64,000 nucleotides of DNA from NCBI GenBank assembly GCA_000002445.1, contig CM000207.1:800001-864000 (forward strand). Direction: 5' to 3'. The position numbers were made by a program, and so were the translations under genes. Below are positions 50,470-62,332 of the stretch, piece by piece. This DNA comes from Trypanosoma brucei (taxonomy: Eukaryota). Each line of letters begins with the position of its first letter. Position 1 is the stretch's first letter. Below the pieces are notes generated by a model. The model was not told the origin of the DNA and did not search any database. It worked only from the letters and a program-made list of their open reading frames with translations.

Positions 50470-50859
50470 GGCGTGCACGTGTCTGCGATGACGGTAACCG
50501 ACTTAGCTTCCCTTCCTTTTGTTGCCTTCCTCACATTTTTGTTCATTGATGATAGGAGGACGCGTGACGCGGCATGATGCAACGAAATTAAAACAACCCT
50601 GAAAGTTCCTCTTCCTCCATCTGACATTAACTTTCCCTTCCGGTGGCATGTTCCTCCCGGGATGCCGCTGTTTGTGCAGTTGGGCAAGTGCCTCCGCACT
50701 TACATGCTTGCTGATTCCTTCAATGGAAAGGTGGATGGACGGATAACAATCACACTCTTCGTTTTTGTAGATCGCTTCGGATTTTTTCTCCGTTCTCCTT
50801 TTGTTTTCGCCTTTTTTTATTTTTGCGGCAGAGACCCTGTGAGTCTCAGGAATAGAGAT

Positions 50860-52017
50860 ATGAGGCGGTGCTGTTGTGCCAAAAGCGGAAGGCCTCAGTT
50901 TCTCATTGACAGTCCGCACGTTCGCCACAGCATCAATGGCTTTGCTCTGTTCACCAAGGAACTCCAGATGGAGAAGGGTGTGCTGAAGGCGAAGGACCTG
51001 AAGAAGGGTCAAGATAATATGAAAGTTATTTCGTCACACTGGAAACAGCTTTCGAATAAAGAGCGAAATGATTATAATAGACGCGCGCGTGAAATAGGGG
51101 CCATGAGAGTGCCGAACACCGAAAAGGCATTCAACGACTTTAACCTTCTTATGCGTCTCATCTACCGGAGCGAGGACATCGCAGGCGCAGGGGACGAGAC
51201 CTTTACCGCACGCATGGTCAGCAATACAATGGCCCAACTCAATCCAGATCAAAAAAAGAAGCTGCGCAAGGAGTTTGTAACTCCGCCAACTAACATAGAA
51301 AACAAAACAAAGGAACAAATGAGACATATATCGTGGTATTACCCGCATATGCGGTATTTCGACTCTTTTACCGATATGCTTCAGTCTGTGGCACCCACGC
51401 GGAAGGAACTCTTTATCGCCGTCTCACGTGTCTTAAAAGTGAATCGCACCGCTTCCCAGCAGTCTTTGGCGGCGCTGAATCAAAAGTTTGAATCCCTTAA
51501 GGGGACTCATCTTAACAAGTTCCGACCCATCGGTGAGGAGGACATCACCTCTTTCGAGAAGTATTGTGCGTCGAATTGCGCCGGCTTTGACGTCCACGCC
51601 TTTAATATCATACGGCTATTTGCCCAGTTCCGTGGTCTGGTGACAGCGAAGAATTCTCCGAAGGGACAAGAAGCCATACAGTACAAAATGTTAATGGAAG
51701 CGGACCGCTTTCGTGAGAGTCTGTATTTCAAGGCCTTGCGCAATTTGGAGAGGGCCAAAGCTGGTCGAACTGCCGACCACGGGACGTACATTTCATACTT
51801 TTACCCAGATGGGGTATCCGTGCCACCCAAAACGTACGGGATAGAAACCCACTTGAACGATGTTCATGTCGCTACGCTGCTGGCTGAAACAAGGTTTGGG
51901 AGGTCTGTCTACGATGATGTTCTGGAGCGGACGGGCTGTTTCCGCAGCAAAGAAGCTAACCAGCTGCTTAGGGAGACGTACATAAACCCTACAAGCAAGA
52001 AAAAAGGGAAAGAATGA
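50860..52017 (+). CDS. HMG-box domain protein (about 385 aa)
   Basis: The region INGFALFTKELQ...MKVISSHWKQLSNKERNDYNRRAREIG fits the HMG-box pattern (SAYxLF..E.....ISK..GE.WK.LS..EK..Y). The track start 50662 would translate the polypyrimidine splice-acceptor tract (LFVFVDRFGFFLRSPFVFAFFYF), so I chose the ATG at 50860 after the tract-plus-AG. The N-terminus MRRCCCAKSGRPQF is Arg-rich with no acidic residues. Confidence 0.55.
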   Translation: MRRCCCAKSGRPQFLIDSPHVRHSINGFALFTKELQMEKGVLKAKDLKKGQDNMKVISSHWKQLSNKERNDYNRRAREIGAMRVPNTEKAFNDFNLLMRLIYRSEDIAGAGDETFTARMVSNTMAQLNPDQKKKLRKEFVTPPTNIENKTKEQMRHISWYYPHMRYFDSFTDMLQSVAPTRKELFIAVSRVLKVNRTASQQSLAALNQKFESLKGTHLNKFRPIGEEDITSFEKYCASNCAGFDVHAFNIIRLFAQFRGLVTAKNSPKGQEAIQYKMLMEADRFRESLYFKALRNLERAKAGRTADHGTYISYFYPDGVSVPPKTYGIETHLNDVHVATLLAETRFGRSVYDDVLERTGCFRSKEANQLLRETYINPTSKKKGKE

Positions 52018-52555: not shown

Positions 52556-55348
52556 ATGTTCATGAACAAGCCCTTTGGCAGCAAGCGCTGCGAACCCTTC
52601 CACGAGTCGGAGCACCTTTGTGAGGCGTTTGCCATCACTGAAGCAATCCTCGCTCGCTATCAGCGTGGGAAACGCAGCTTTACGTCCTCCGAAAAAAGTG
52701 GACTGGCAGCCCTTATCAAACGTATTCCTTATGATATCCTTGTTGAGGTTCTCGATCAAAGCGGATTTACTCCAACAAGCAATGCAACACCCCCCGTTGA
52801 TTATTTAGCTATGATGGAGCACACAATGACGCACGGTGCGTCTATTACACACGCCCTGCAGTACCTTAACGATTTGATGACTAAGTGTACCGGGTGCCCG
52901 GGGATTCGTACATATTACCATAACCCCAATGATGACGTTCTGGCCGACCCCGTTCACGACACGGCAGCATTGATTGATGAAACAACAGCCGTGGGAAAGT
53001 CGGTTGTAACTAAACAGTACCTTAATATAGCTGGGGCTCACTACATACCCTTGATCCACGGAGATATTGTGGTTGGTTGTGTTGAGGTACCCCGCTTTTC
53101 GGGAAATCTTGAGGAGTTGCCATCATTCCCATCTCTCATAAGAGCTGTGACATGCACCGCACACAAATTCATTGAGGAAGCGAGAATCAACTGGAACAGG
53201 GAGAAGGCGGAAGCTATGTTGCAAATGGCGACCAGGTTGGCCCGTGACAATCTTGATGAAACAGTACTTGCATCTTCTATCATGAACACTGTCAAGAGTC
53301 TCACGGAAAGTGCACGTTGCAGTCTCTTCCTTGTGAAAGACGACAAGCTTGAAGCGCATTTTGAGGATGGTAACGTCGTTTCCATACCCAAGGGAACAGG
53401 CATTGTAGGGTATGTGGCGCAAACTGGTGAGACTGTTAATATTGTTGATGCCTACGCCGATGACCGCTTTAACCGTGAGGTTGACAAGGCTACTGGGTAC
53501 CGTACAAAGACGATACTCTGCATGCCTGTGATGTACGAAGGAACGATTGTGGCTGTAACCCAGCTGATTAATAAATTGGATCTGACAACTGAGAGTGGAT
53601 TGCGCCTACCTCGTGTGTTCGGAAAACGTGACGAGGAGCTGTTCCAAACCTTCTCTATGTTTGCTGGCGCCTCACTACGTAACTGTCGTATCAATGACCG
53701 ACTCTTAAAGGAGAAGAAAAAGAGTGACGTGATTCTCGATGTTGTTACTGTTCTCTCGAACACGGATATCCGCGATGTGGATGGTATTGTTCGCCACGCA
53801 CTGCACGGAGCAAAGAAACTACTGAACGCGGATCGCTCTACTTTGTTTTTGGTGGACAAGGAACGGAACGAACTTTGCAGTCGTATGGCAGATAGCGTTG
53901 CTGGTAAGGAGATTCGTTTTCCGTGTGGCCAAGGTATTGCGGGCACTGTGGCGGCATCTGGAGTTGGTGAGAATATTCAGGACGCGTACCAGGATCCGCG
54001 TTTCAACCGTGAGGTTGACAAACAACTTGGATACCGCACGCAGACCATATTGTGCGAGCCCATCATACTAAATGGTGAGATCCTTGCTGTCGTGCAGCTC
54101 GTGAACAAGCTTGATACGTCTGGAGAAGTGACTGTGTTTACCGAGGATGATCGTGAGACCTTCCGTGTGTTTTCCTTATTTGCAGGTATATCCATCAACA
54201 ACTCTCACCTGCTTGAGTTCGCTGTGAAAGCGGGTCGTGAGGTGATGGAATTAAATGAACACCGAGCAACATTGTTTAATAAGAACGTTCCCTCACGTGC
54301 GGTTAAACGAGTCACTGCCATTACGAAGGTTGAAAGGGAAGCGGTCTTGGTCTGTGAACTTCCATCGTTTGACGTTACGGATGTTGAGTTCGACTTGTTC
54401 CGAGCGCGTGATACTACGGATAAACCGTTGGATGTTGCTGCTGCTATTGCATACAGACTACTGCTTGGAAGCGGCCTTCCACAAAAGTTTGGTTGCTCTG
54501 ACGAGGTGCTTCTTAACTTCATTCTGCAATGCCGTAAGAAATACCGTAATGTCCCTTATCACAACTTTTACCATGTTGTGGATGTATGCCAAACCATTCA
54601 CACATTCTTGTACAGGGGAAATGTGTATGAGAAGTTAACCGAGCTTGAGTGCTTTGTGCTGCTTATCACCGCACTGGTGCATGATCTTGATCATATGGGG
54701 CTGAACAACAGTTTCTACCTGAAAACAGAATCTCCACTTGGTATTCTTTCCAGCGCAAGTGGTAACACCTCTGTTCTTGAGGTGCATCACTGCAACCTTG
54801 CTGTTGAGATCCTCTCTGATCCGGAATCTGATGTGTTTGGTGGTCTGGAGGGTGCAGAGCGTACTCTTGCGTTCCGATCGATGATTGATTGTGTACTTGC
54901 GACAGATATGGCGAAGCATGGAAGTGCATTAGAGGCGTTTCTTGCATCTGCGGCGGACCAGTCGTCAGACGAGGCGGCGTTTCACCGCATGACGATGGAG
55001 ATACTCTTGAAAGCTGGAGATATCTCTAACGTAACGAAACCGTTCGACATTTCCCGTCAGTGGGCAATGGCTGTGACGGAGGAGTTCTACCGTCAAGGAG
55101 ACATGGAGAAGGAGAGGGGTGTGGAAGTATTGCCCATGTTTGACCGATCTAAGAATATGGAGCTTGCAAAAGGTCAAATTGGATTCATTGACTTTGTCGC
55201 AGCCCCATTTTTCCAGAAGATAGTTGATGCCTGCCTGCAAGGGATGCAATGGACAGTCGACCGTATCAAATCGAACCGCGCACAGTGGGAGCGAGTTCTG
55301 GAAACAAGACTATCAACGAGTTCTGGCAACAACAGCAGTACTCGTTGA
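52556..55348 (+). CDS. PDEB1: cAMP-specific phosphodiesterase PDEB1 (tandem GAF-A/GAF-B plus class I PDE catalytic domain), 930 aa
   Basis: Two GAF domains (NIVDAYADDRFNREVD, NIQDAYQDPRFNREVD) are followed by the HD-type catalytic domain YHNFYHVVDV...HDLDHMGLNNSF. The track start 52532 is TTG and the first ATG is at 52556 (MFMNKPFGSKR), giving exactly 930 aa as for T. brucei PDEB1. It is the upstream copy of the tandem pair. Confidence 0.9.
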   Translation: MFMNKPFGSKRCEPFHESEHLCEAFAITEAILARYQRGKRSFTSSEKSGLAALIKRIPYDILVEVLDQSGFTPTSNATPPVDYLAMMEHTMTHGASITHALQYLNDLMTKCTGCPGIRTYYHNPNDDVLADPVHDTAALIDETTAVGKSVVTKQYLNIAGAHYIPLIHGDIVVGCVEVPRFSGNLEELPSFPSLIRAVTCTAHKFIEEARINWNREKAEAMLQMATRLARDNLDETVLASSIMNTVKSLTESARCSLFLVKDDKLEAHFEDGNVVSIPKGTGIVGYVAQTGETVNIVDAYADDRFNREVDKATGYRTKTILCMPVMYEGTIVAVTQLINKLDLTTESGLRLPRVFGKRDEELFQTFSMFAGASLRNCRINDRLLKEKKKSDVILDVVTVLSNTDIRDVDGIVRHALHGAKKLLNADRSTLFLVDKERNELCSRMADSVAGKEIRFPCGQGIAGTVAASGVGENIQDAYQDPRFNREVDKQLGYRTQTILCEPIILNGEILAVVQLVNKLDTSGEVTVFTEDDRETFRVFSLFAGISINNSHLLEFAVKAGREVMELNEHRATLFNKNVPSRAVKRVTAITKVEREAVLVCELPSFDVTDVEFDLFRARDTTDKPLDVAAAIAYRLLLGSGLPQKFGCSDEVLLNFILQCRKKYRNVPYHNFYHVVDVCQTIHTFLYRGNVYEKLTELECFVLLITALVHDLDHMGLNNSFYLKTESPLGILSSASGNTSVLEVHHCNLAVEILSDPESDVFGGLEGAERTLAFRSMIDCVLATDMAKHGSALEAFLASAADQSSDEAAFHRMTMEILLKAGDISNVTKPFDISRQWAMAVTEEFYRQGDMEKERGVEVLPMFDRSKNMELAKGQIGFIDFVAAPFFQKIVDACLQGMQWTVDRIKSNRAQWERVLETRLSTSSGNNSSTR
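53190..55300 (+). repeat. segmental duplication copy A (PDEB1 3' 2.1 kb)
   Basis: It is near-identical to 58361-60471 with a constant offset of 5171 bp and no indels. Spurious antisense ORFs 53452..53946, 53819..54025, 54205..54522 and 54635..54919 reappear at exactly +5171. Confidence 0.9.
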
Positions 55349-56412
55349 GTGAAATTGAAGAAGTCAGTTGACCGGTGGTAGATGTACGTTCTTGTCAATG
55401 GTGATTTGACTGTGTATTTAAAAAGTGAAATGGAGTTCTGGGAGTACTGTAGTGGATGTGAACACTATCACAATCAAATATTTTCCATGCCTACAGATAT
55501 ACATGATACGTTTGGTACGTGGGTTGCCTTCACGGAAGTATGTACAAATCTTACCAATTTTACCCCCTTGTTTTTTATCTTTTATTGAGTGGTTTCTCTG
55601 TTGTTTTGATTGAGCATGTTTGGAGGTGCAAAGAATTTTTTCCCCCTCCTTTTTTTTCTTTTTTCATTCTGTGTCTTGATCAATATAATTTGGGGTGTTT
55701 CCCCCATGTATATTTTATTTGGATACTGGGAGGGATGCATTTTTTTTCTTTTTTCTTCTTTGGTCTTACTTTGGTTTTTCTAATTTTTTGGGAACTTTGT
55801 ACTGCATGGGTAGCTGACCTCTTAACGCCTACCCATGCGAGACTCCTATCTCTTCTCCCCTGTTTCCCCGTCGCATGGAAGGGAAATGAAGTTGGCTGCA
55901 CCAATTTTTTCTTCCCTCCTTTTCATTCCTATCGCAGTATTTTTTTTTTTTTTGCTGCAGGGAGGTGTAAGAGGGAGTTGTGGCGGTACAGAGTTTCATT
56001 CGAAAAGAACTGCAGTTGGAACGGTAGAGAAGAGGAGGAAGAAGGATATTTGTTTGTGGCAGCGGCAGTGGGAACCGCAACAGGTAAATGGGGGTAATGG
56101 AGGTATAATATGGAAGAAGGAGTGCATATCTTTGTGTTATTTATTCTTGTGCCCTTTTGTTTTTTTTATTGTAGGCATGGATGAGTTGTTGTCGTCATTA
56201 CTCACTTCACCATCGCAACTGCCATTAAATTTTTTTTTTGTAATTTTGTCTTTTTTTTTTCTTTCTTTACCAGTGGGGGAATATTGTGCATGTTGTTGTC
56301 AACGGCCCTGCAGCATACACATGCATGGATGTTTGTATAAAGTCTGAAGTGTGTGACCCTTTGATGTTTCCACCAGGATCGTGACATCCTACCTGATTGC
56401 ATCCGTTGTGCG

Positions 56413-56433
56413 TATATATATATATATATATAT
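56413..56433 (+). repeat. (TA)10 microsatellite
   Basis: cgtatatatatatatatatatatgttt, in the PDEB1-PDEB2 intergenic region. A similar (AT)9 lies at 63825-63842. Confidence 0.9.
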
Positions 56434-57726
56434 GTTTATACGTTTACACTGCGGTTGTGTGACATTTTATCCCCCTTTAGGGGGTGTTTCTTCCTTTATT
56501 TTACTACCGCAATCCCGTGGTTTCGTCCTTGTAAGGTTCCCTTTGTCGTCTAACTTACAGGTTGGTAGAGGCGGGACAGGGAGAGAAGTATTCGATTTTT
56601 TTTTTGGTGCTTCTCGGCTACAGGCTGCGTATCTGGTTCTATATTTTTGTTCTTTCTTTCCGTGTGGCACCGCAAAAGGTGTAAGTACCAACGGGAGGAG
56701 GCTGGAATCAACGAGGTGTGAGTTATATATGTATATATTGAATATGTGAGTAGTGGAGAGAAGAGAGAAAAGTAAGCAAGCAATCAAACCTGTAAAGAGG
56801 AGATAAAAGGAAAAAAAAATGTAAGGGAAAAAGAGAGCAAATATGCGGCAAATTTGGCGCGATCCAATGCGTGTATTTTTATTGTTGTTATCCTTTCCCT
56901 TTTGTCTGCACCACTACGCTTCTTGCACGAGCAGCACGGTCTTTACTGCAATTTCACTCCTTTGTTATAGTTTGTTATTCCTTCCTTTATTGAGGGAAGT
57001 GGGATTGACCAACCACTACCTCTCGCGCGTAGGAGGAGGAAAACAACAGGTTAACAATGAGGGGAAAACAAGTGGAGGGGATCATGACTACGGGAAAGGA
57101 AAGAGAACAGGATATTAAACACTAAATGCAACGCATGCAACGTTGCAACTCCTCGCAAATGTTTTTACTTCCTAATGAAATGTGGGAAGTGTTTGTGTGC
57201 ATGGCGGCAATGTACATGACAGAATAAAGCCAAGGATGTGCGCGGAGAGGAATAAAGGGGGATATATGAAAAGGAGCAAATAAAGGGTGTTTGACGATTT
57301 ACAACGTACTGTCTCCTCATATTGGTAGCAGTTTTGTTTGATTGTTATTTATTAATTTGATACTTGGCGGATGCCTTCCGTTACAACCATCAGTTTGCGG
57401 ATGGCAGTCACTACTGCCCATGTACACGTGTGGAGCACCTGCGCCGTTAGGTACGAGAAGGCAACTGAGTTTTTACACCCATTATTCCACCCTCTTCTAA
57501 GCATTCACCCACTAACTTTTCTCCTTTCGCCCTATTTCTCTTTGTTAATTGTTATGCATTTCGCATGTCGTGAGGCTTGTTTTCTGCCGTCGGTTAGGTA
57601 AACTACGTCTGTTGGGCACAGAGATCAAGTGCTAGCACAAATACAGATATAAGTGCGCACAGGGAGAGAGAGAGAGGGACTGCTTCCCCCTTTGCAGATC
57701 CAGATAGCTGGGAAAGACAGAGACAG

Positions 57727-60504
57727 ATGACACACAACGGTGGTCGTCATCTGCTTGAGGCGGTTACGCTATGCGGGTCCATTCTTACCCGCTATAAGCG
57801 GAGCAACATGAAGCTCGACGAAGCTGAGGTAAGGGCATTAAAGGAGTTATTCGAGAAGTATCAAGATATCCTCGTGGATGGATCCCCTGGTTTGCCCACC
57901 CACGCTAGCGGGCCCATGATCCAGCCTCCCGTTACAAACATGGTCGCCCCTTATGATTCCCCCACGGATACTATAGTGAAGTTCGTTGAAGGAACGATAA
58001 ACCTGCAGAGACCAATTGTTGAGGTCCTTCACGTTATGAACGAGCATTTGTCCCTTGTCCTTCGCGCAAAGAACACTCATGTCTTTTATGTCGACCCCGT
58101 TAATAACCTGTTATACGACCCTATTCACGGGGTGGCCGCTGCACTCGATGAATCGTCACCAATAGGAAAGGCCATAGTTTCGGGTGAGCGGCTTAACGTA
58201 GCGGGGACACTATATATACCCATCATCTCCGAGGGGATGCCGTTGGGTTGCGTACTGAGTCCTTGTGGAAGGGCAGATTACCACGCCTCTACGATGCTTG
58301 AGTCATCACTCCGTGTTATTTCCACATCCCTCAAAAACATCATTCAGGCAGAGAAACTAAACTGGAACAAAGAAAAGGCGGAGGCTATGCTCCGGATGGC
58401 AACGCAGCTGGCCCGTGACAATCTTGAAGAAACAGTACTCGCATCTTCTATCATGAACACTGTCAAGAGTCTCACGGAAAGTGCGCGTTGCAGTCTCTTC
58501 CTTGTCAGGGGTGACGTTCTTGAAGCGCATTTTGAGGATGGTAACGTTGTTACAATCCCTAGGGGTGCAGGTATTGCCGGATATGTGGCGCAAACTGGTG
58601 AGACTGTTAATATTGTTGATGCCTACGCCGATGACCGCTTTAACCGTGAGGTTGACAAGGCTACTGGGTACCGTACAAAGACGATACTCTGCATGCCTGT
58701 GATGTACGAAGGAACGATTGTGGCTGTTGCCCAACTGATTAATAAATTGGATCTGACAACTGAGAGTGGATTGCGCCTACCTCGTGTGTTCGGAAGGCGT
58801 GATGAGGAGCTGTTCCAAACCTTCTCTATGTTTGCTGGCGCCTCACTACGTAACTGTCGTATCAACGACCGACTCTTAAAGGAGAAGAAAAAGAGTGACG
58901 TGATTCTCGATGTTGTTACTGTTCTCTCGAACACGGATATCCGCGATGTGGATGGTATTGTTCGCCACGCACTGCACGGAGCAAAGAAACTACTGAACGC
59001 GGATCGCTCTACTTTGTTTTTGGTGGACAAGGAACGGAACGAACTTTGCAGTCGTATGGCAGATAGCGTTGCTGGTAAGGAGATTCGTTTTCCGTGTGGC
59101 CAAGGTATTGCGGGCACTGTGGCGGCATCTGGAGTTGGTGAGAATATTCAGGACGCGTACCAGGATCCGCGTTTCAACCGTGAGGTTGACAAACAACTTG
59201 GATACCGCACGCAGGCCATATTGTGCGAGCCCATCATACTAAATGGTGAGATCCTTGCTGTCGTGCAGCTCGTGAACAAGCTTGATTCATCTGGAGAAGT
59301 GACTGTGTTTACCGAGGATGATCGTGACACCTTCCGTGTGTTTTCCTTATTTGCAGGTATATCCATCAACAACTCTCACCTGCTTGAGTTCGCTGTGAAG
59401 GCGGGTCGTGAGGTGATGGAATTAAATGAACACCGAGCAACATTGTTTAATAAGAACGTTCCCTCACGTGGAGTTAAACGAGTCACTGCCATCACAAATA
59501 GAGAAAGGGAGGCTGTGCTACGTATTGAGTTCCCCAACGTGGACGTTACGGATATTGACTTCGACTTGTTCCAGGCACGTGAAAGTACAGATAAACCGTT
59601 GGATGTTGCTGCTGCTATTGCATACAGACTACTGCTTGGAAGCGGCCTTCCACAAAAGTTTGGTTGCTCTGACGAGGTGCTTCTTAACTTCATTCTGCAA
59701 TGCCGTAAGAAATACCGTAATGTCCCTTATCACAACTTTTACCATGTTGTGGATGTATGCCAAACCATTTACACATTCTTGTACAGGGGAAATGTGTATG
59801 AGAAGTTAACCGAGCTTGAGTGCTTTGTGCTGCTTATCACCGCACTGGTGCATGATCTTGATCATATGGGGCTGAACAACAGTTTCTACCTGAAAACAGA
59901 ATCTCCACTTGGTATTCTTTCCAGCGCAAGTGGTAACAAGTCTGTTCTTGAGGTGCATCACTGCAACCTTGCTGTTGAGATCCTCTCTGATCCGGAATCT
60001 GATGTGTTTGGTGGTCTGGAGGGTGCAGAGCGTACTCTTGCGTTCCGATCGATGATTGATTGTGTACTTGCGACAGATATGGCGAGACATAGTGAATTTC
60101 TTGAGAAGTACCTAGAGCTTATGAAAACATCTTACAACGTTGATGATTCCGATCATCGGCAAATGACAATGGATGTGCTTATGAAAGCTGGAGATATCTC
60201 TAACGTAACGAAACCGTTCGACATTTCCCGTCAGTGGGCAATGGCTGTGACGGAGGAGTTCTACCGTCAAGGAGACATGGAAAAGGAGAGGGGTGTGGAA
60301 GTATTGCCCATGTTTGACCGATCTAAGAATATGGAGCTTGCAAAAGGTCAAATTGGATTCATTGACTTTGTCGCAGCCCCATTTTTCCAGAAGATAGTTG
60401 ATGCCTGCCTGCAAGGGATGCAATGGACAGTCGACCGTACAAAGTCGAACCGCGCACAGTGGGAGCGAGTTCTGGAAGCAAGGAGTACAGGGGCTTCGTC
60501 TTAG
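57727..60504 (+). CDS. PDEB2: cAMP-specific phosphodiesterase PDEB2 (GAF-A/GAF-B plus PDE catalytic domain), 925 aa
   Basis: It has the same architecture as PDEB1. The ATG at 57727 is genuine and gives 925 aa as for T. brucei PDEB2. It is collinear with PDEB1 at a constant +5171 bp offset. It has its own N-terminal 200 aa and a C-terminal tail ...EARSTGASS. Confidence 0.9.
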   Translation: MTHNGGRHLLEAVTLCGSILTRYKRSNMKLDEAEVRALKELFEKYQDILVDGSPGLPTHASGPMIQPPVTNMVAPYDSPTDTIVKFVEGTINLQRPIVEVLHVMNEHLSLVLRAKNTHVFYVDPVNNLLYDPIHGVAAALDESSPIGKAIVSGERLNVAGTLYIPIISEGMPLGCVLSPCGRADYHASTMLESSLRVISTSLKNIIQAEKLNWNKEKAEAMLRMATQLARDNLEETVLASSIMNTVKSLTESARCSLFLVRGDVLEAHFEDGNVVTIPRGAGIAGYVAQTGETVNIVDAYADDRFNREVDKATGYRTKTILCMPVMYEGTIVAVAQLINKLDLTTESGLRLPRVFGRRDEELFQTFSMFAGASLRNCRINDRLLKEKKKSDVILDVVTVLSNTDIRDVDGIVRHALHGAKKLLNADRSTLFLVDKERNELCSRMADSVAGKEIRFPCGQGIAGTVAASGVGENIQDAYQDPRFNREVDKQLGYRTQAILCEPIILNGEILAVVQLVNKLDSSGEVTVFTEDDRDTFRVFSLFAGISINNSHLLEFAVKAGREVMELNEHRATLFNKNVPSRGVKRVTAITNREREAVLRIEFPNVDVTDIDFDLFQARESTDKPLDVAAAIAYRLLLGSGLPQKFGCSDEVLLNFILQCRKKYRNVPYHNFYHVVDVCQTIYTFLYRGNVYEKLTELECFVLLITALVHDLDHMGLNNSFYLKTESPLGILSSASGNKSVLEVHHCNLAVEILSDPESDVFGGLEGAERTLAFRSMIDCVLATDMARHSEFLEKYLELMKTSYNVDDSDHRQMTMDVLMKAGDISNVTKPFDISRQWAMAVTEEFYRQGDMEKERGVEVLPMFDRSKNMELAKGQIGFIDFVAAPFFQKIVDACLQGMQWTVDRTKSNRAQWERVLEARSTGASS
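58361..60471 (+). repeat. segmental duplication copy B (PDEB2 3' 2.1 kb)
   Basis: It is the partner of copy A. The UTRs and intergenic flanks on either side of the two genes are unrelated. Confidence 0.9.
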
Positions 60505-61951: not shown

Positions 61952-62332
61952 ATGACGGCTGAAATCAGCGAAAAGGCTTTCCCTCTTGCTGGCGATCGCC
62001 TCACGCAGACCATCCTGGACATAGTACAGGAAGCCAGTAATGCAAAGATGATTAAGAAGGGAGCCAATGAGGCCACGAAGGCGCTCAACCGTGGTATTGC
62101 GGACCTGATCGTGCTTGCGGGCGATACGAACCCTATCGAGATCCTTCTTCACCTCCCGCTTCTATGCGAAGACAAAAATGTGCCGTACGTGTTTGTTCCC
62201 TCAAAGACGGCATTAGGGCGCGCGGCGCAAGTGTCACGGAATGCGGTGGCTCTAGCGATCCTCCAGATGGAGAACAGCCCCATTTCGGCTAAGATACAGG
62301 CGGTTAAATTGGAGATTGAACGGCTCCTGTAG
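61952..62332 (+). CDS. SNU13: SNU13/NHP2-like protein 1 (15.5K, L7Ae family; U4 snRNP and box C/D snoRNP K-turn binding protein), 126 aa
   Basis: KAFPLAGDRLTQTILDIVQEASNAKMIKKGANEATKALNRGIADLIVLAGDTNPIEILLHLPLLCEDKNVPYVFVPSKTALGRA is near-identical in pattern to human NHP2L1. The track ORF starts 58 codons upstream in non-coding (CA)n-containing sequence. The true ATG is at 61952. Confidence 0.85.
   Translation: MTAEISEKAFPLAGDRLTQTILDIVQEASNAKMIKKGANEATKALNRGIADLIVLAGDTNPIEILLHLPLLCEDKNVPYVFVPSKTALGRAAQVSRNAVALAILQMENSPISAKIQAVKLEIERLL

What the first reader, a model, noticed from the sequence alone, without database searches (positions are those of the whole stretch)
52556..60504. PDEB1/PDEB2 tandem pair: perfectly collinear at +5171 bp, diverged 5' 600 bp, near-identical indel-free 3' 2.1 kb interrupted by hypervariable patches (gene-conversion mosaic)
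- The two start codons (52556, 57727) and the whole coding frames are offset by exactly 5171 bp, so the copies have never acquired an indel.
- The first ~200 codons are only about 30% identical at protein level. For example, ILARYQRG vs ILTRYKRS and DPVHDTAALIDE vs DPIHGVAAALDE are alignable but diverged.
- From about 53440/58611 onward the DNA is almost base-for-base identical for about 1.85 kb.
- Two short patches break this identity and are strongly diverged at both nucleotide and protein level.
  - Patch 1 is ~54300-54420 vs 59471-59591 (TKVEREAVLVCELPSFDVTDVEFDLFRARDTT vs TNREREAVLRIEFPNVDVTDIDFDLFQAREST), at the GAF-B/catalytic linker.
  - Patch 2 is ~54925-54990 vs 60096-60161 (KHGSALEAFLASAADQSSDEAAFHRMTMEI vs RHSEFLEKYLELMKTSYNVDDSDHRQMTMDV), inside the catalytic domain.
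- The 3' UTRs diverge immediately after the stop codons.
- An abrupt identity boundary plus islands of divergence is the classic signature of recurrent gene conversion with selection preserving paralog-specific residues. The divergent islands are candidate determinants of isoform-specific function or inhibitor selectivity.
Basis: seen in the sequence. Interest (0 to 1): 0.62.

Follow-up and report, generated by a model that had tools for sequence, protein, structure and literature searches.

The report
Known gene-conversion mosaic of TbrPDEB1/TbrPDEB2
The two neighbouring cAMP-phosphodiesterase genes of Trypanosoma brucei (TbrPDEB1 and TbrPDEB2) are an ancient gene pair whose 3' two-thirds are kept almost identical by ongoing gene conversion, apart from short islands that escape it; the pattern is real, but it was already described in 2006 and 2009.

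Summary
The window is T. b. brucei TREU927 chromosome 9. The two ORFs are TbrPDEB1 (52556-55348, 930 aa) and TbrPDEB2 (57727-60504, 925 aa).

**What holds**
- The mosaic is real. At 4-fold degenerate sites, 1/271 differ in the homogenised core. The corresponding counts are 17/27 in the N-terminal region, 10/31 in the GAF-A 5' zone, 6/9 in patch 1 and 3/3 in patch 2.
- Gene conversion is strongly supported. The N-termini are orthologous across Trypanosoma and Leishmania. Core synonymous difference (pS) is 0.00-0.05 between paralogues but about 0.75 between T. brucei and T. congolense.
- T. cruzi, T. melophagium and L. infantum show the same mosaic independently.
- TREU927 and T. b. gambiense carry strain-specific bases present in both paralogues.

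**What fails**
- The claim "Perfectly collinear, never an indel" is wrong. Patch 2 holds a 3-bp indel, so the offset becomes +5174. The N-terminal region needs at least five indels, and the tails differ by six codons.
- "Hypervariable" and "inhibitor selectivity" are not supported. The patches are stable between strains, the pocket residues lie in identical sequence, and Cpd A inhibits both enzymes at 12 nM.

**Prior publication**
- Johner et al. 2006 described the diverged N-terminus and the helix 12-13 island in three species.
- Kunz et al. 2009 documented a conversion event at this locus.

Only the T. brucei-specific patch 1 island adds a small detail.

The parts
52556..55348 (+). TbrPDEB1 coding sequence (930 aa; Tb09.160.3590). 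Domains: GAF-A 238-374, GAF-B 406-549, PDEase_I 668-903.
   Evidence: 100% identical to XP_803808.1 of TREU927. Pfam domains. The catalytic domain matches PDB 5G2B and 4I15.
57727..60504 (+). TbrPDEB2 coding sequence (925 aa; Tb09.160.3630). This is the unconverted 'B2a' allele.
   Evidence: P0003 is XP_803815.1. Same Pfam architecture as B1. The Kunz primer TbrB2-for matches at 58282-58309.
52556..53197 (+). Diverged 5' region of B1 (codons 1-214; partner 57727-58368). It encodes the N-terminal part that distinguishes the isoforms and has escaped conversion.
   Evidence: pS 0.57-0.82, pN about 0.5, 31% aa identity, five gap blocks. It groups by orthology with T. congolense, T. cruzi, T. grayi and the Leishmania 940-aa proteins.
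53198..53410 (+). Intermediate zone (GAF-A 5' part; partner 58369-58581). It has been converted less recently than the core.
   Evidence: 83.1% nt identity; 10/31 4-fold sites differ; pS 0.25-0.49. It overlaps the tract converted in Lister 427: ORF nt 780-1077 minimum = window 53335-53632 / 58506-58803 (PMC2689650; primer at 53381-53409).
53411..54319 (+). Homogenised core 1 (rest of GAF-A, GAF-B, start of linker; partner 58582-59490).
   Evidence: 98.5% nt identity; 1/150 4-fold sites differ. Orthologue pS against T. congolense is 0.75.
54320..54418 (+). Patch 1 island (B1 residues 589-621; partner 59491-59589). It lies in the linker between GAF-B and PDEase_I, as a helix-loop-helix at the N-terminus of the crystallised catalytic domain.
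   Evidence: 66.7% nt identity; 6/9 4-fold sites differ; pS 0.69, pN 0.23. It is an island only in T. brucei. Its 3' edge (54406-54418) is B2-like in T. b. gambiense B1. Model secondary structure.
54419..54913 (+). Homogenised core 2 (partner 59590-60084).
   Evidence: 99.4% nt identity; 0/80 4-fold sites differ.
54914..55009 (+). Patch 2 island (B1 residues 787-818, 'alpha' type; partner 60085-60183, 'beta' type, with an extra codon at 60118-60120). It is a helix-loop-helix (helices 12-13) between the ATDM and AGDISN motifs.
   Evidence: 41.7% nt identity; 3/3 4-fold sites differ; pS 0.77, pN 0.49. An island sits at the same position in T. cruzi, T. melophagium and L. infantum. Described by Johner 2006 (PMC1431542). 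Model secondary structure.
55010..55303 (+). Homogenised core 3 (partner 60184-60477, offset +5174). It contains all the published inhibitor-pocket residues.
   Evidence: 98.6% nt identity; 0/41 4-fold sites differ. Pocket residues V840, Q874, F877, A837, T841, Y845 and N867-L870 come from PMC9190044.
55304..55348 (+). Diverged C-terminal tail of B1 (partner 60478-60504, six codons shorter).
55349..57726 (+). Intergenic spacer of 2378 bp. It has no similarity to the regions upstream of B1 or downstream of B2.
   Evidence: blastn. The literature gives 2379 bp (PMC2689650).

Best explanation
TbrPDEB1 and TbrPDEB2 are tandem paralogues from a duplication older than the Trypanosoma radiation, and probably older than the Trypanosoma/Leishmania split.

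Non-reciprocal homologous recombination (interlocus gene conversion) between the two copies repeatedly overwrites about 2.1 kb of coding sequence, from just before GAF-A to about 45 nt before the B1 stop codon. That stretch therefore evolves in concert within each species.

Three parts lie outside or resist the conversion tracts:
- The 5' ~640 bp, encoding the isoform-specific N-terminus.
- The last few codons together with both flanks.
- A ~96-bp island encoding the helix 12-13 hairpin of the catalytic domain (patch 2). This island is ancient and stays linked to the same N-terminus type across Trypanosoma.

T. brucei has a second, lineage-specific island in the GAF-B/catalytic linker (patch 1). 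It has a graded 5' boundary (53198-53410), where conversion is rarer. This is the zone seen being converted in strain Lister 427.

Shown here or in the literature: the mosaic, concerted evolution, recent and ongoing exchange, and the age of patch 2.

Inferred: why the islands persist. The likely causes are selection against convertants, rejection of mismatched heteroduplex, or both.
For: 1. **Synonymous mosaic.** 4-fold sites differ at 1/271 in the core, against 17/27, 10/31, 6/9 and 3/3 in the N-terminus, GAF-A 5' zone, patch 1 and patch 2. NG86 windows agree.
2. **The duplication is ancient.**
   - B1-type and B2-type N-termini are each shared by T. brucei, T. congolense, T. cruzi and T. melophagium. 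Leishmaniinae have recognisable counterparts.
   - Synteny (Sld5 - two genes - PDEB1 - PDEB2 - L7Ae/NHP2) is conserved.
3. **The core is homogenised within species.**
   - Paralogue pS is 0.00-0.05 in T. brucei and 0.00 in T. cruzi, T. melophagium and L. infantum.
   - Orthologue pS is 0.67-0.83.
   - Protein identity is 98-100% within species and 74-93% between species.
4. **Exchange is ongoing.**
   - TREU927 vs T. b. gambiense: sites 54001, 54415, 54436 and 55198 carry a strain-specific base in both paralogues.
   - A run of five changes at 54406-54418 makes gambiense B1 identical to B2.
   - Most allelic differences match the other paralogue.
5. **A conversion event is published.** TbrPDEB1 GAF-A was copied into one TbrPDEB2 allele in Lister 427 (PMC2689650). 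Its primers and nine amino-acid changes map exactly onto the differences seen here.
6. **Patch 2 is trans-specific.**
   - pN alpha-alpha is 0.13 (T. brucei/T. congolense) against 0.49 alpha-beta. The direction is the same for T. cruzi and T. melophagium.
   - Island boundaries are the same in four species.
   - This was previously noted by Johner 2006 (PMC1431542).
Against: - No result argues against conversion itself.
- Synonymous sites between species are saturated, so ages cannot be quantified.
- Orthology of the patch 2 types between Trypanosoma and Leishmaniinae is only weakly indicated (41% vs 32% identity over about 33 residues).
- Several public assemblies at this locus are probably chimeric or collapsed: T. 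congolense G0UTQ6, T. grayi and T. equiperdum. This limits the cross-species sampling.
- The cause of island persistence was not tested.
Confidence: 0.93

Rival explanations
1. The islands, especially patch 2, persist passively rather than through selection for isoform-specific function. They sit in the least constrained parts of the protein, diverged by chance between conversion events, and now block heteroduplex formation through mismatch-repair-dependent rejection.
For: - Among orthologues, the two least conserved 30-residue windows of the whole homogenised region are 555-605 and 780-820. Mean pairwise identity there is 0.34-0.42, against 0.76 overall. These are the positions of patches 1 and 2.
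- The patch 2 island has been erased in Lotmaria and Porcisia, and apparently in Viannia.
- Patch 1 is lineage-specific and is being eroded in T. b. gambiense.
- LmjPDEB1 and LmjPDEB2 have very similar kinetics and inhibitor profiles (PMC1431542).
- Kunz 2009 cites T. brucei recombination as depending on sequence conservation.
Against: - Patch 2 has been retained, with the same linkage to the N-terminus type, in at least four Trypanosoma lineages and in several Leishmaniinae, although identical sequence flanks it on both sides.
- Each patch 2 type is under purifying selection (alpha-alpha pN 0.13 vs pS 0.79).
- Residues 565-588 are equally unconstrained yet are homogenised.
Confidence: 0.45
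2. The near-identity reflects strong purifying selection on GAF-B and the catalytic domain, not gene conversion.
For: These domains are the most conserved parts of the protein between species.
Against: - Synonymous and 4-fold sites are also identical (1/271 differ).
- The same codons are saturated for synonymous change between orthologues (pS about 0.75).
- Strain-specific substitutions are shared by both paralogues.
Confidence: 0.02
3. The duplication is recent, and the N-terminus and patches then diverged very fast or were replaced.
For: The cores are nearly identical.
Against: - B1-type and B2-type N-termini and the alpha/beta patch 2 types are each shared across species.
- pS in the diverged parts is saturated while pN/pS is well below 1.
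- The tandem pair and its synteny are present from Trypanosoma to Leishmania.
Confidence: 0.02
4. The mosaic is an assembly artefact caused by mixing reads of two similar genes.
For: Chimeric or collapsed models do occur at this locus in other assemblies: the L. major database error reported by Johner 2006, T. congolense G0UTQ6, and the single genes in T. grayi and T. equiperdum.
Against: - The TREU927 sequence agrees with independently cloned cDNA and genomic sequences and with crystallised constructs of both enzymes.
- It agrees with T. b. gambiense.
- It agrees with the Southern and PCR mapping in Kunz 2009.
Confidence: 0.01

Closest known systems
Kinetoplastid PDEB1/PDEB2 tandem pair as described for L. 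major, T. brucei and T. cruzi (Johner et al. 2006, BMC Microbiol 6:25, PMC1431542)
   Same: - The locus and architecture are the same: a diverged first ~230 aa, an almost identical remainder, and one short, entirely dissimilar stretch at helices 12-13 of the catalytic domain.
- That stretch is at identical positions in all three species.
- The tandem arrangement is followed by NHP2/L7Ae.
- The paper also reports a chimeric assembly at the locus.
   Different: - The paper works at protein level and does not invoke gene conversion or use synonymous sites.
- It does not mention the second, T. brucei-specific island (patch 1) or the graded 5' boundary.
Gene conversion of GAF-A from TbrPDEB1 into one TbrPDEB2 allele in Lister 427 (Kunz, Luginbuehl & Seebeck 2009, PMC2689650)
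   Same: - The genes and the mechanism are the same.
- The converted tract (ORF nt 780-1077 minimum, 702-1362 maximum) lies in the zone that is only 83% identical in this window.
- The nine amino-acid changes are exactly the B1/B2 differences seen here.
   Different: - It describes one recent event in one strain.
- The window (TREU927) carries the unconverted allele.
- The paper does not interpret the whole 2.1-kb identity block or the islands as the product of long-term concerted evolution.
Concerted evolution of tandem paralogues with conversion-resistant islands in general (from my own knowledge, e.g. human RHD/RHCE, globin and opsin gene pairs)
   Same: - Identity blocks have sharp edges.
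- Paralogue divergence is far below orthologue divergence.
- Polymorphisms are shared between paralogues.
- Short islands keep paralogue identity.
   Different: - Here the pair is much older, spanning a whole family of protists.
- The same island has survived in many lineages.
- The resemblance is recalled, not tested.

Membership tests
Kinetoplastid PDEB family (class I cAMP phosphodiesterase with two N-terminal GAF domains) | [quoted passage not shown] | tested here: met
   PF00233 covers residues 668-903 in both proteins, E = 5e-74 and 2.5e-76. HDLDHMGLNNSF is present in both. The signature is as quoted in PMC1431542.
Kinetoplastid PDEB family (class I cAMP phosphodiesterase with two N-terminal GAF domains) | Two GAF domains upstream of the catalytic domain | tested here: met
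   GAF at 238-374 and GAF/GAF_2/GAF_3 at 406-549 in both proteins.
Kinetoplastid PDEB family (class I cAMP phosphodiesterase with two N-terminal GAF domains) | Identity with the reference TbrPDEB1 and TbrPDEB2 sequences | tested here: met
   ORF1 is 100% identical to XP_803808.1 (P0001). P0003 (XP_803815.1) is the TREU927 TbrPDEB2 entry, 925 aa like ORF2, and it was used as Tbru_B2 in the cross-species alignments.
Kinetoplastid PDEB family (class I cAMP phosphodiesterase with two N-terminal GAF domains) | Tandem B1-B2 arrangement followed by NHP2/L7Ae | tested here: met
   In the window the 126-aa L7Ae ORF is at 61952-62332. The same gene order is seen in T. cruzi, L. infantum, T. melophagium and T. 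b. gambiense.
Kinetoplastid PDEB family (class I cAMP phosphodiesterase with two N-terminal GAF domains) | cAMP-specific hydrolytic activity | not testable with these tools
   Taken from the literature only (PMC1431542, PMC3379837).
Interlocus gene conversion / concerted evolution | Paralogue synonymous divergence far below orthologue synonymous divergence in the same segment | tested here: met
   Core pS is 0.00-0.05 between paralogues and 0.67-0.83 between orthologues.
Interlocus gene conversion / concerted evolution | Duplication older than the speciation events | tested here: met
   The N-termini group by orthology. Examples: Tbru_B1 vs Tcon_a 64% against Tbru_B1 vs Tbru_B2 25%; pN for Tbru_B2 vs the T. 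congolense downstream gene 0.16 against 0.49-0.50.
Interlocus gene conversion / concerted evolution | Mosaic of identity blocks and diverged segments at silent sites | tested here: met
   (Fisher p = 1e-6 to 7e-20).
Interlocus gene conversion / concerted evolution | Polymorphisms shared between paralogues, or lineage-specific substitutions present in both copies | tested here: met
   Four sites carry strain-specific bases in both copies, and there is a five-site tract at 54406-54418.
Interlocus gene conversion / concerted evolution | A non-reciprocal transfer observed directly | not testable with these tools
   Reported experimentally for Lister 427 using Southern blots, PCR and sequencing (PMC2689650).

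The most novel reading that the evidence does not exclude
The helix 12-13 hairpin (patch 2) is a selection-maintained isoform determinant. It has been kept distinct between PDEB1 and PDEB2 since before the Trypanosoma radiation, despite continuous conversion on both sides. It would act as a surface for isoform-specific regulation or partner binding, not for catalysis or inhibitor binding. Patch 1 would be a younger, T. brucei-specific example of the same process.
Probability: 0.4. Interest if true: 0.4.

Novelty: already known. Interest (0 to 1): 0.2.

Why it matters
TbrPDEB1 and TbrPDEB2 are validated drug targets that must be inhibited together. The homogenised core explains why a single inhibitor hits both enzymes.

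Practical consequences:
- The conversion dynamics explain strain markers such as the Lister 427 allele.
- They explain why public gene models at this locus are so often chimeric or collapsed.
- They mean that a resistance mutation in one copy could spread to the other.

The persistent helix 12-13 island is a cheap, testable candidate for isoform-specific function. This idea was already raised in 2006.

Tried and rejected
- **Apparent swap of patch 2 types in T. congolense.**
  - UniProt G0UTQ6 has a B1 N-terminus with a beta island.
  - I rejected this as real biology because, in WGS contig CAEQ01000986, the alpha-island gene lies upstream of a gene with a B2-type N-terminus.
  - G0UTQ6 is therefore most likely a collapsed chimera, like the L. 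major error reported by Johner 2006.
- **Mapping the patches onto crystal coordinates to measure distance from the pocket.** No coordinates are available in the tools. I used the AlphaFold secondary structure and published pocket residue numbers instead.
- **Papers not held.** Luginbuehl 2010 (N-terminus targeting) and Wang 2007 (LmjPDEB1 structure) could not be read.
- **Literature search for PDB 5H2Q/5H2R.** It found nothing relevant.
- **Search for 'concerted evolution' together with PDEB1/PDEB2.** No paper uses that term for this locus.
- **Orthology of the patch 2 types between Trypanosoma and Leishmaniinae.** The signal is too weak over ~33 residues to call.
Full report
**Identity of the locus**

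The window is Trypanosoma brucei brucei TREU927 chromosome 9.
- The first ORF (ATG at 52556, stop ending at 55348, 930 aa) is 100% identical to XP_803808.1, which is TbrPDEB1.
- The second ORF (57727-60504, 925 aa) is TbrPDEB2.
- Both proteins have GAF domains at 238-374 and 406-549 and a PDEase_I domain at 668-903.
- The B1 catalytic domain matches the crystallised TbrPDEB1 constructs.
- The spacer between the genes is 2378 bp. The literature gives 2379 bp.

**Checking the observation**

The start codons are indeed 5171 bp apart. The claim that the frames are collinear throughout, with no indel ever, is wrong.
- At a fixed +5171 offset, identity is at chance level (0.15-0.37) over 52556-52899 and again beyond about 54940.
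- A gapped protein alignment needs five gap blocks in the N-terminal region. These total 16 residues in each protein, so they happen to cancel.
- There is one extra codon in B2 inside patch 2 (CTT at 60118-60120). The offset is +5174 from there on.
- The B1 tail is six codons longer.

| Segment | B1 coordinates | nt identity | Note |
|---|---|---|---|
| N-terminal region | 52556-53197 | 46.8% | 31% aa identity |
| Intermediate zone | 53198-53410 | 83% | graded 5' boundary |
| Core 1 | 53411-54319 | 98.5% | |
| Patch 1 | 54320-54418 | 66.7% | |
| Core 2 | 54419-54913 | 99.4% | |
| Patch 2 | 54914-55009 | 41.7% | |
| Core 3 | 55010-55303 | 98.6% | |
| Tail | 55304-55348 | diverged | |

blastn finds no similarity between the two units outside 53169-55308 / 58340-60482.

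**Is the pattern more than chance or protein-level constraint?**

Yes. The counts of differing 4-fold degenerate sites are:

| Segment | Differing 4-fold sites |
|---|---|
| Three cores combined | 1 of 271 |
| N-terminal region | 17 of 27 |
| Intermediate zone | 10 of 31 |
| Patch 1 | 6 of 9 |
| Patch 2 | 3 of 3 |

Fisher tests against the core give p = 1e-6 to 7e-20. Synonymous divergence is therefore strongly non-uniform.

**Concerted evolution across species**

I retrieved orthologues and the genomic loci of T. congolense, T. cruzi, L. infantum, T. vivax, T. grayi, T. melophagium, T. b. gambiense and T. equiperdum.
- Synteny is conserved from Trypanosoma to Leishmania: Sld5, two genes, PDEB1, PDEB2, L7Ae/NHP2.
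- The N-termini fall into a B1 type and a B2 type, and each type is shared across species. For example, Tbru_B1 is 64% identical to the T. congolense B1-type N-terminus but only 25% identical to Tbru_B2.
- The cores behave in the opposite way. They are 98-100% identical within every species, but only 92%, 84% and 74% identical between T. brucei and T. congolense, T. cruzi and Leishmania respectively.
- At synonymous sites, core pS is 0.00-0.05 between paralogues and 0.67-0.83 between orthologues.
- T. cruzi, T. melophagium and L. infantum each show the same mosaic independently. Each has a saturated 5' region of about 240 codons, a core with pS of 0.00, and one island at the patch 2 position with pS of 0.53-0.78.

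This is the textbook signature of an old duplication homogenised separately in each lineage.

**Conversion is ongoing within T. brucei**

I compared TREU927 with T. b. gambiense DAL972.
- Four core sites (54001, 54415, 54436, 55198) carry one base in both paralogues of one strain and another base in both paralogues of the other strain.
- A run of five changes in 13 nt (54406-54418) makes gambiense B1 identical to B2. This shortens patch 1 at its 3' edge.
- Most allelic differences in one gene match the other gene.
- Protein variants in GenBank and the PDB show the same sharing at residues 497, 521, 534, 619/620, 682 and 817.

**What is already published**

- *Johner et al. 2006 (PMC1431542).* They described, for L. 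major, a diverged first 230 aa and an almost identical remainder. They also reported a 24-aa stretch spanning helices 12 and 13 of the catalytic domain that is entirely dissimilar between the paralogues.
[quoted passage not shown] - They found very similar kinetics and inhibitor profiles for the two enzymes.
- *Kunz et al. 2009 (PMC2689650).* They demonstrated experimentally a gene conversion from TbrPDEB1 into one TbrPDEB2 allele in Lister 427. The tract spans ORF nt 780-1077 at minimum, which is window 53335-53632 / 58506-58803.
  - Their primers map to 58282-58309 and 53381-53409.
  - Their nine amino-acid changes are exactly the B1/B2 differences I list in the intermediate zone.
  - The window therefore carries the unconverted B2a allele. 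The graded 5' boundary is the zone where conversion is rarer but does occur.

**The two patches are not equivalent**

*Patch 2 (B1 residues 787-818)*
- It is a helix-loop-helix between the ATDM and AGDISN motifs in a confident AlphaFold model (pLDDT 84-93). This agrees with the 'helices 12-13' of Johner et al.
- It is trans-specific. The shorter 'alpha' version is on the B1 gene in T. brucei and T. cruzi, with a related B1-gene version in T. melophagium. By position, the T. congolense alpha-island gene is also B1. The 'beta' version is on B2.
- Non-synonymous distances group alpha with alpha and beta with beta (0.13 vs 0.49 for T. brucei/T. congolense).
- Each version is under purifying selection.
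- The island has been erased in Lotmaria and Porcisia, and apparently in Viannia.

*Patch 1 (residues 589-621)*
- It lies between GAF-B and the Pfam catalytic domain.
- It is an island only in T. brucei.
- Its B1/B2 divergence (pS 0.69, pN 0.23) is about as large as the T. brucei/T. congolense distance.
- It is being eroded in T. b. gambiense.

*Both patches*
- They coincide with the two least conserved stretches of the whole homogenised region among orthologues.
- They are not hypervariable between strains.

**Mechanism**

Shown:
- Interlocus gene conversion homogenises about 2.1 kb.
- Its limits are the isoform-specific 5' region and the last codons plus flanks.
- Internal islands escape it.

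Inferred: why the islands persist. There are two readings.
- *Selection against convertants.* This is supported by the long and consistently linked retention of patch 2.
- *A passive, self-sustaining barrier.* Low-constraint sequence diverges and then prevents heteroduplex formation. This is supported by the coincidence with low-constraint segments, by loss of the island in some lineages, and by the similar enzymology of the isoforms.

I cannot separate these two readings with sequence data alone.

**Inhibitor selectivity is not supported**
- The hydrophobic clamp (V840, F877), the invariant Q874 and the P-pocket residues (A837, T841, Y845, N867-L870; PMC9190044) all lie in core 3. The proteins are identical there from residue 819 to 903.
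- Cpd A/NPD-001 inhibits the two enzymes with IC50 values of 12.4 and 12.0 nM (PMC3379837; PMC7859335).

**Verdict**

However, the mosaic, the helix 12-13 island and gene conversion at this locus are all in the literature.

What this analysis adds is modest:
- a silent-site and cross-species demonstration of concerted evolution;
- evidence of very recent exchange between strains;
- the T. brucei-specific patch 1 island;
- a list of chimeric or collapsed public gene models.

Noticed in passing
L009 9001-11775 (T. b. equiperdum GCA_003543875.1); corresponds to window 52556-~55100 joined to ~60300-60504: This assembly has a single PDEB gene. It is B1-like up to and including patch 2 and then B2-like, with the switch between window 55007 and 55266. 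L7Ae follows directly, so one 5.17-kb unit is missing. A second T. equiperdum entry (SCU67933.1, 211 aa) shows the same alpha island with a B2 tail. This is either a real unequal-crossover deletion or an assembly collapse.
   Followed up: partly
L005 2-15989 (T. vivax GCA_021307395.1): There are at least five tandem PDEB copies with a 3496-bp period. All the complete copies have a B2-type N-terminus and the beta-type island. The last copy is annotated as fused to L7Ae. No B1-type or alpha copy lies within the fetched 10-kb flank.
   Followed up: partly
L006 10001-12781 (T. grayi draft): A single PDEB gene has a B1-type N-terminus and a beta-type island, and L7Ae follows directly. This is what a B1/B2 collapse or an unequal crossover would produce.
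   Followed up: no
L001 29-2074 and 3960-5040 (T. congolense IL3000 WGS contig) vs UniProt G0UTQ6 (P0002): On the WGS contig, the alpha-island gene lies upstream of a gene with a B2-type N-terminus. The UniProt chromosome-level model instead joins a B1 N-terminus to a beta island, so it is probably a chimeric model.
   Followed up: partly
GenBank AAG43461 (P0097, 'TbPDE2B', 930 aa) relative to window 57727-58800 and 53600-55348: This early clone is B2-type up to about residue 335. It is B1-type from residue 357 onwards, including both patches and the tail. It is either a PCR or cloning chimera or a recombinant allele.
   Followed up: no
window 54410-54415, 54840, 55004 (B1 residues 619/620, 762, 817): The crystallised TbrPDEB1 constructs (5G2B and others) and AAK33016 differ from TREU927 B1 at D619E and T620S (B2-like), G762D and L817I. 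Structures are therefore not of the TREU927 allele.
   Followed up: partly
window 53452-53946 (-) and 58623-59117 (-): Two 164-aa antisense ORFs appear in the mechanical ORF list. They are near-identical only because they lie inside the homogenised core, and there is no evidence that they are genes.
   Followed up: no
window 50662-52017 (+) and 61952-62332 (+): The flanking genes are conserved in synteny. Upstream is a protein annotated with a weak HMG-box hit in T. b. gambiense. Downstream is a 126-aa L7Ae/NHP2 protein.
   Followed up: no
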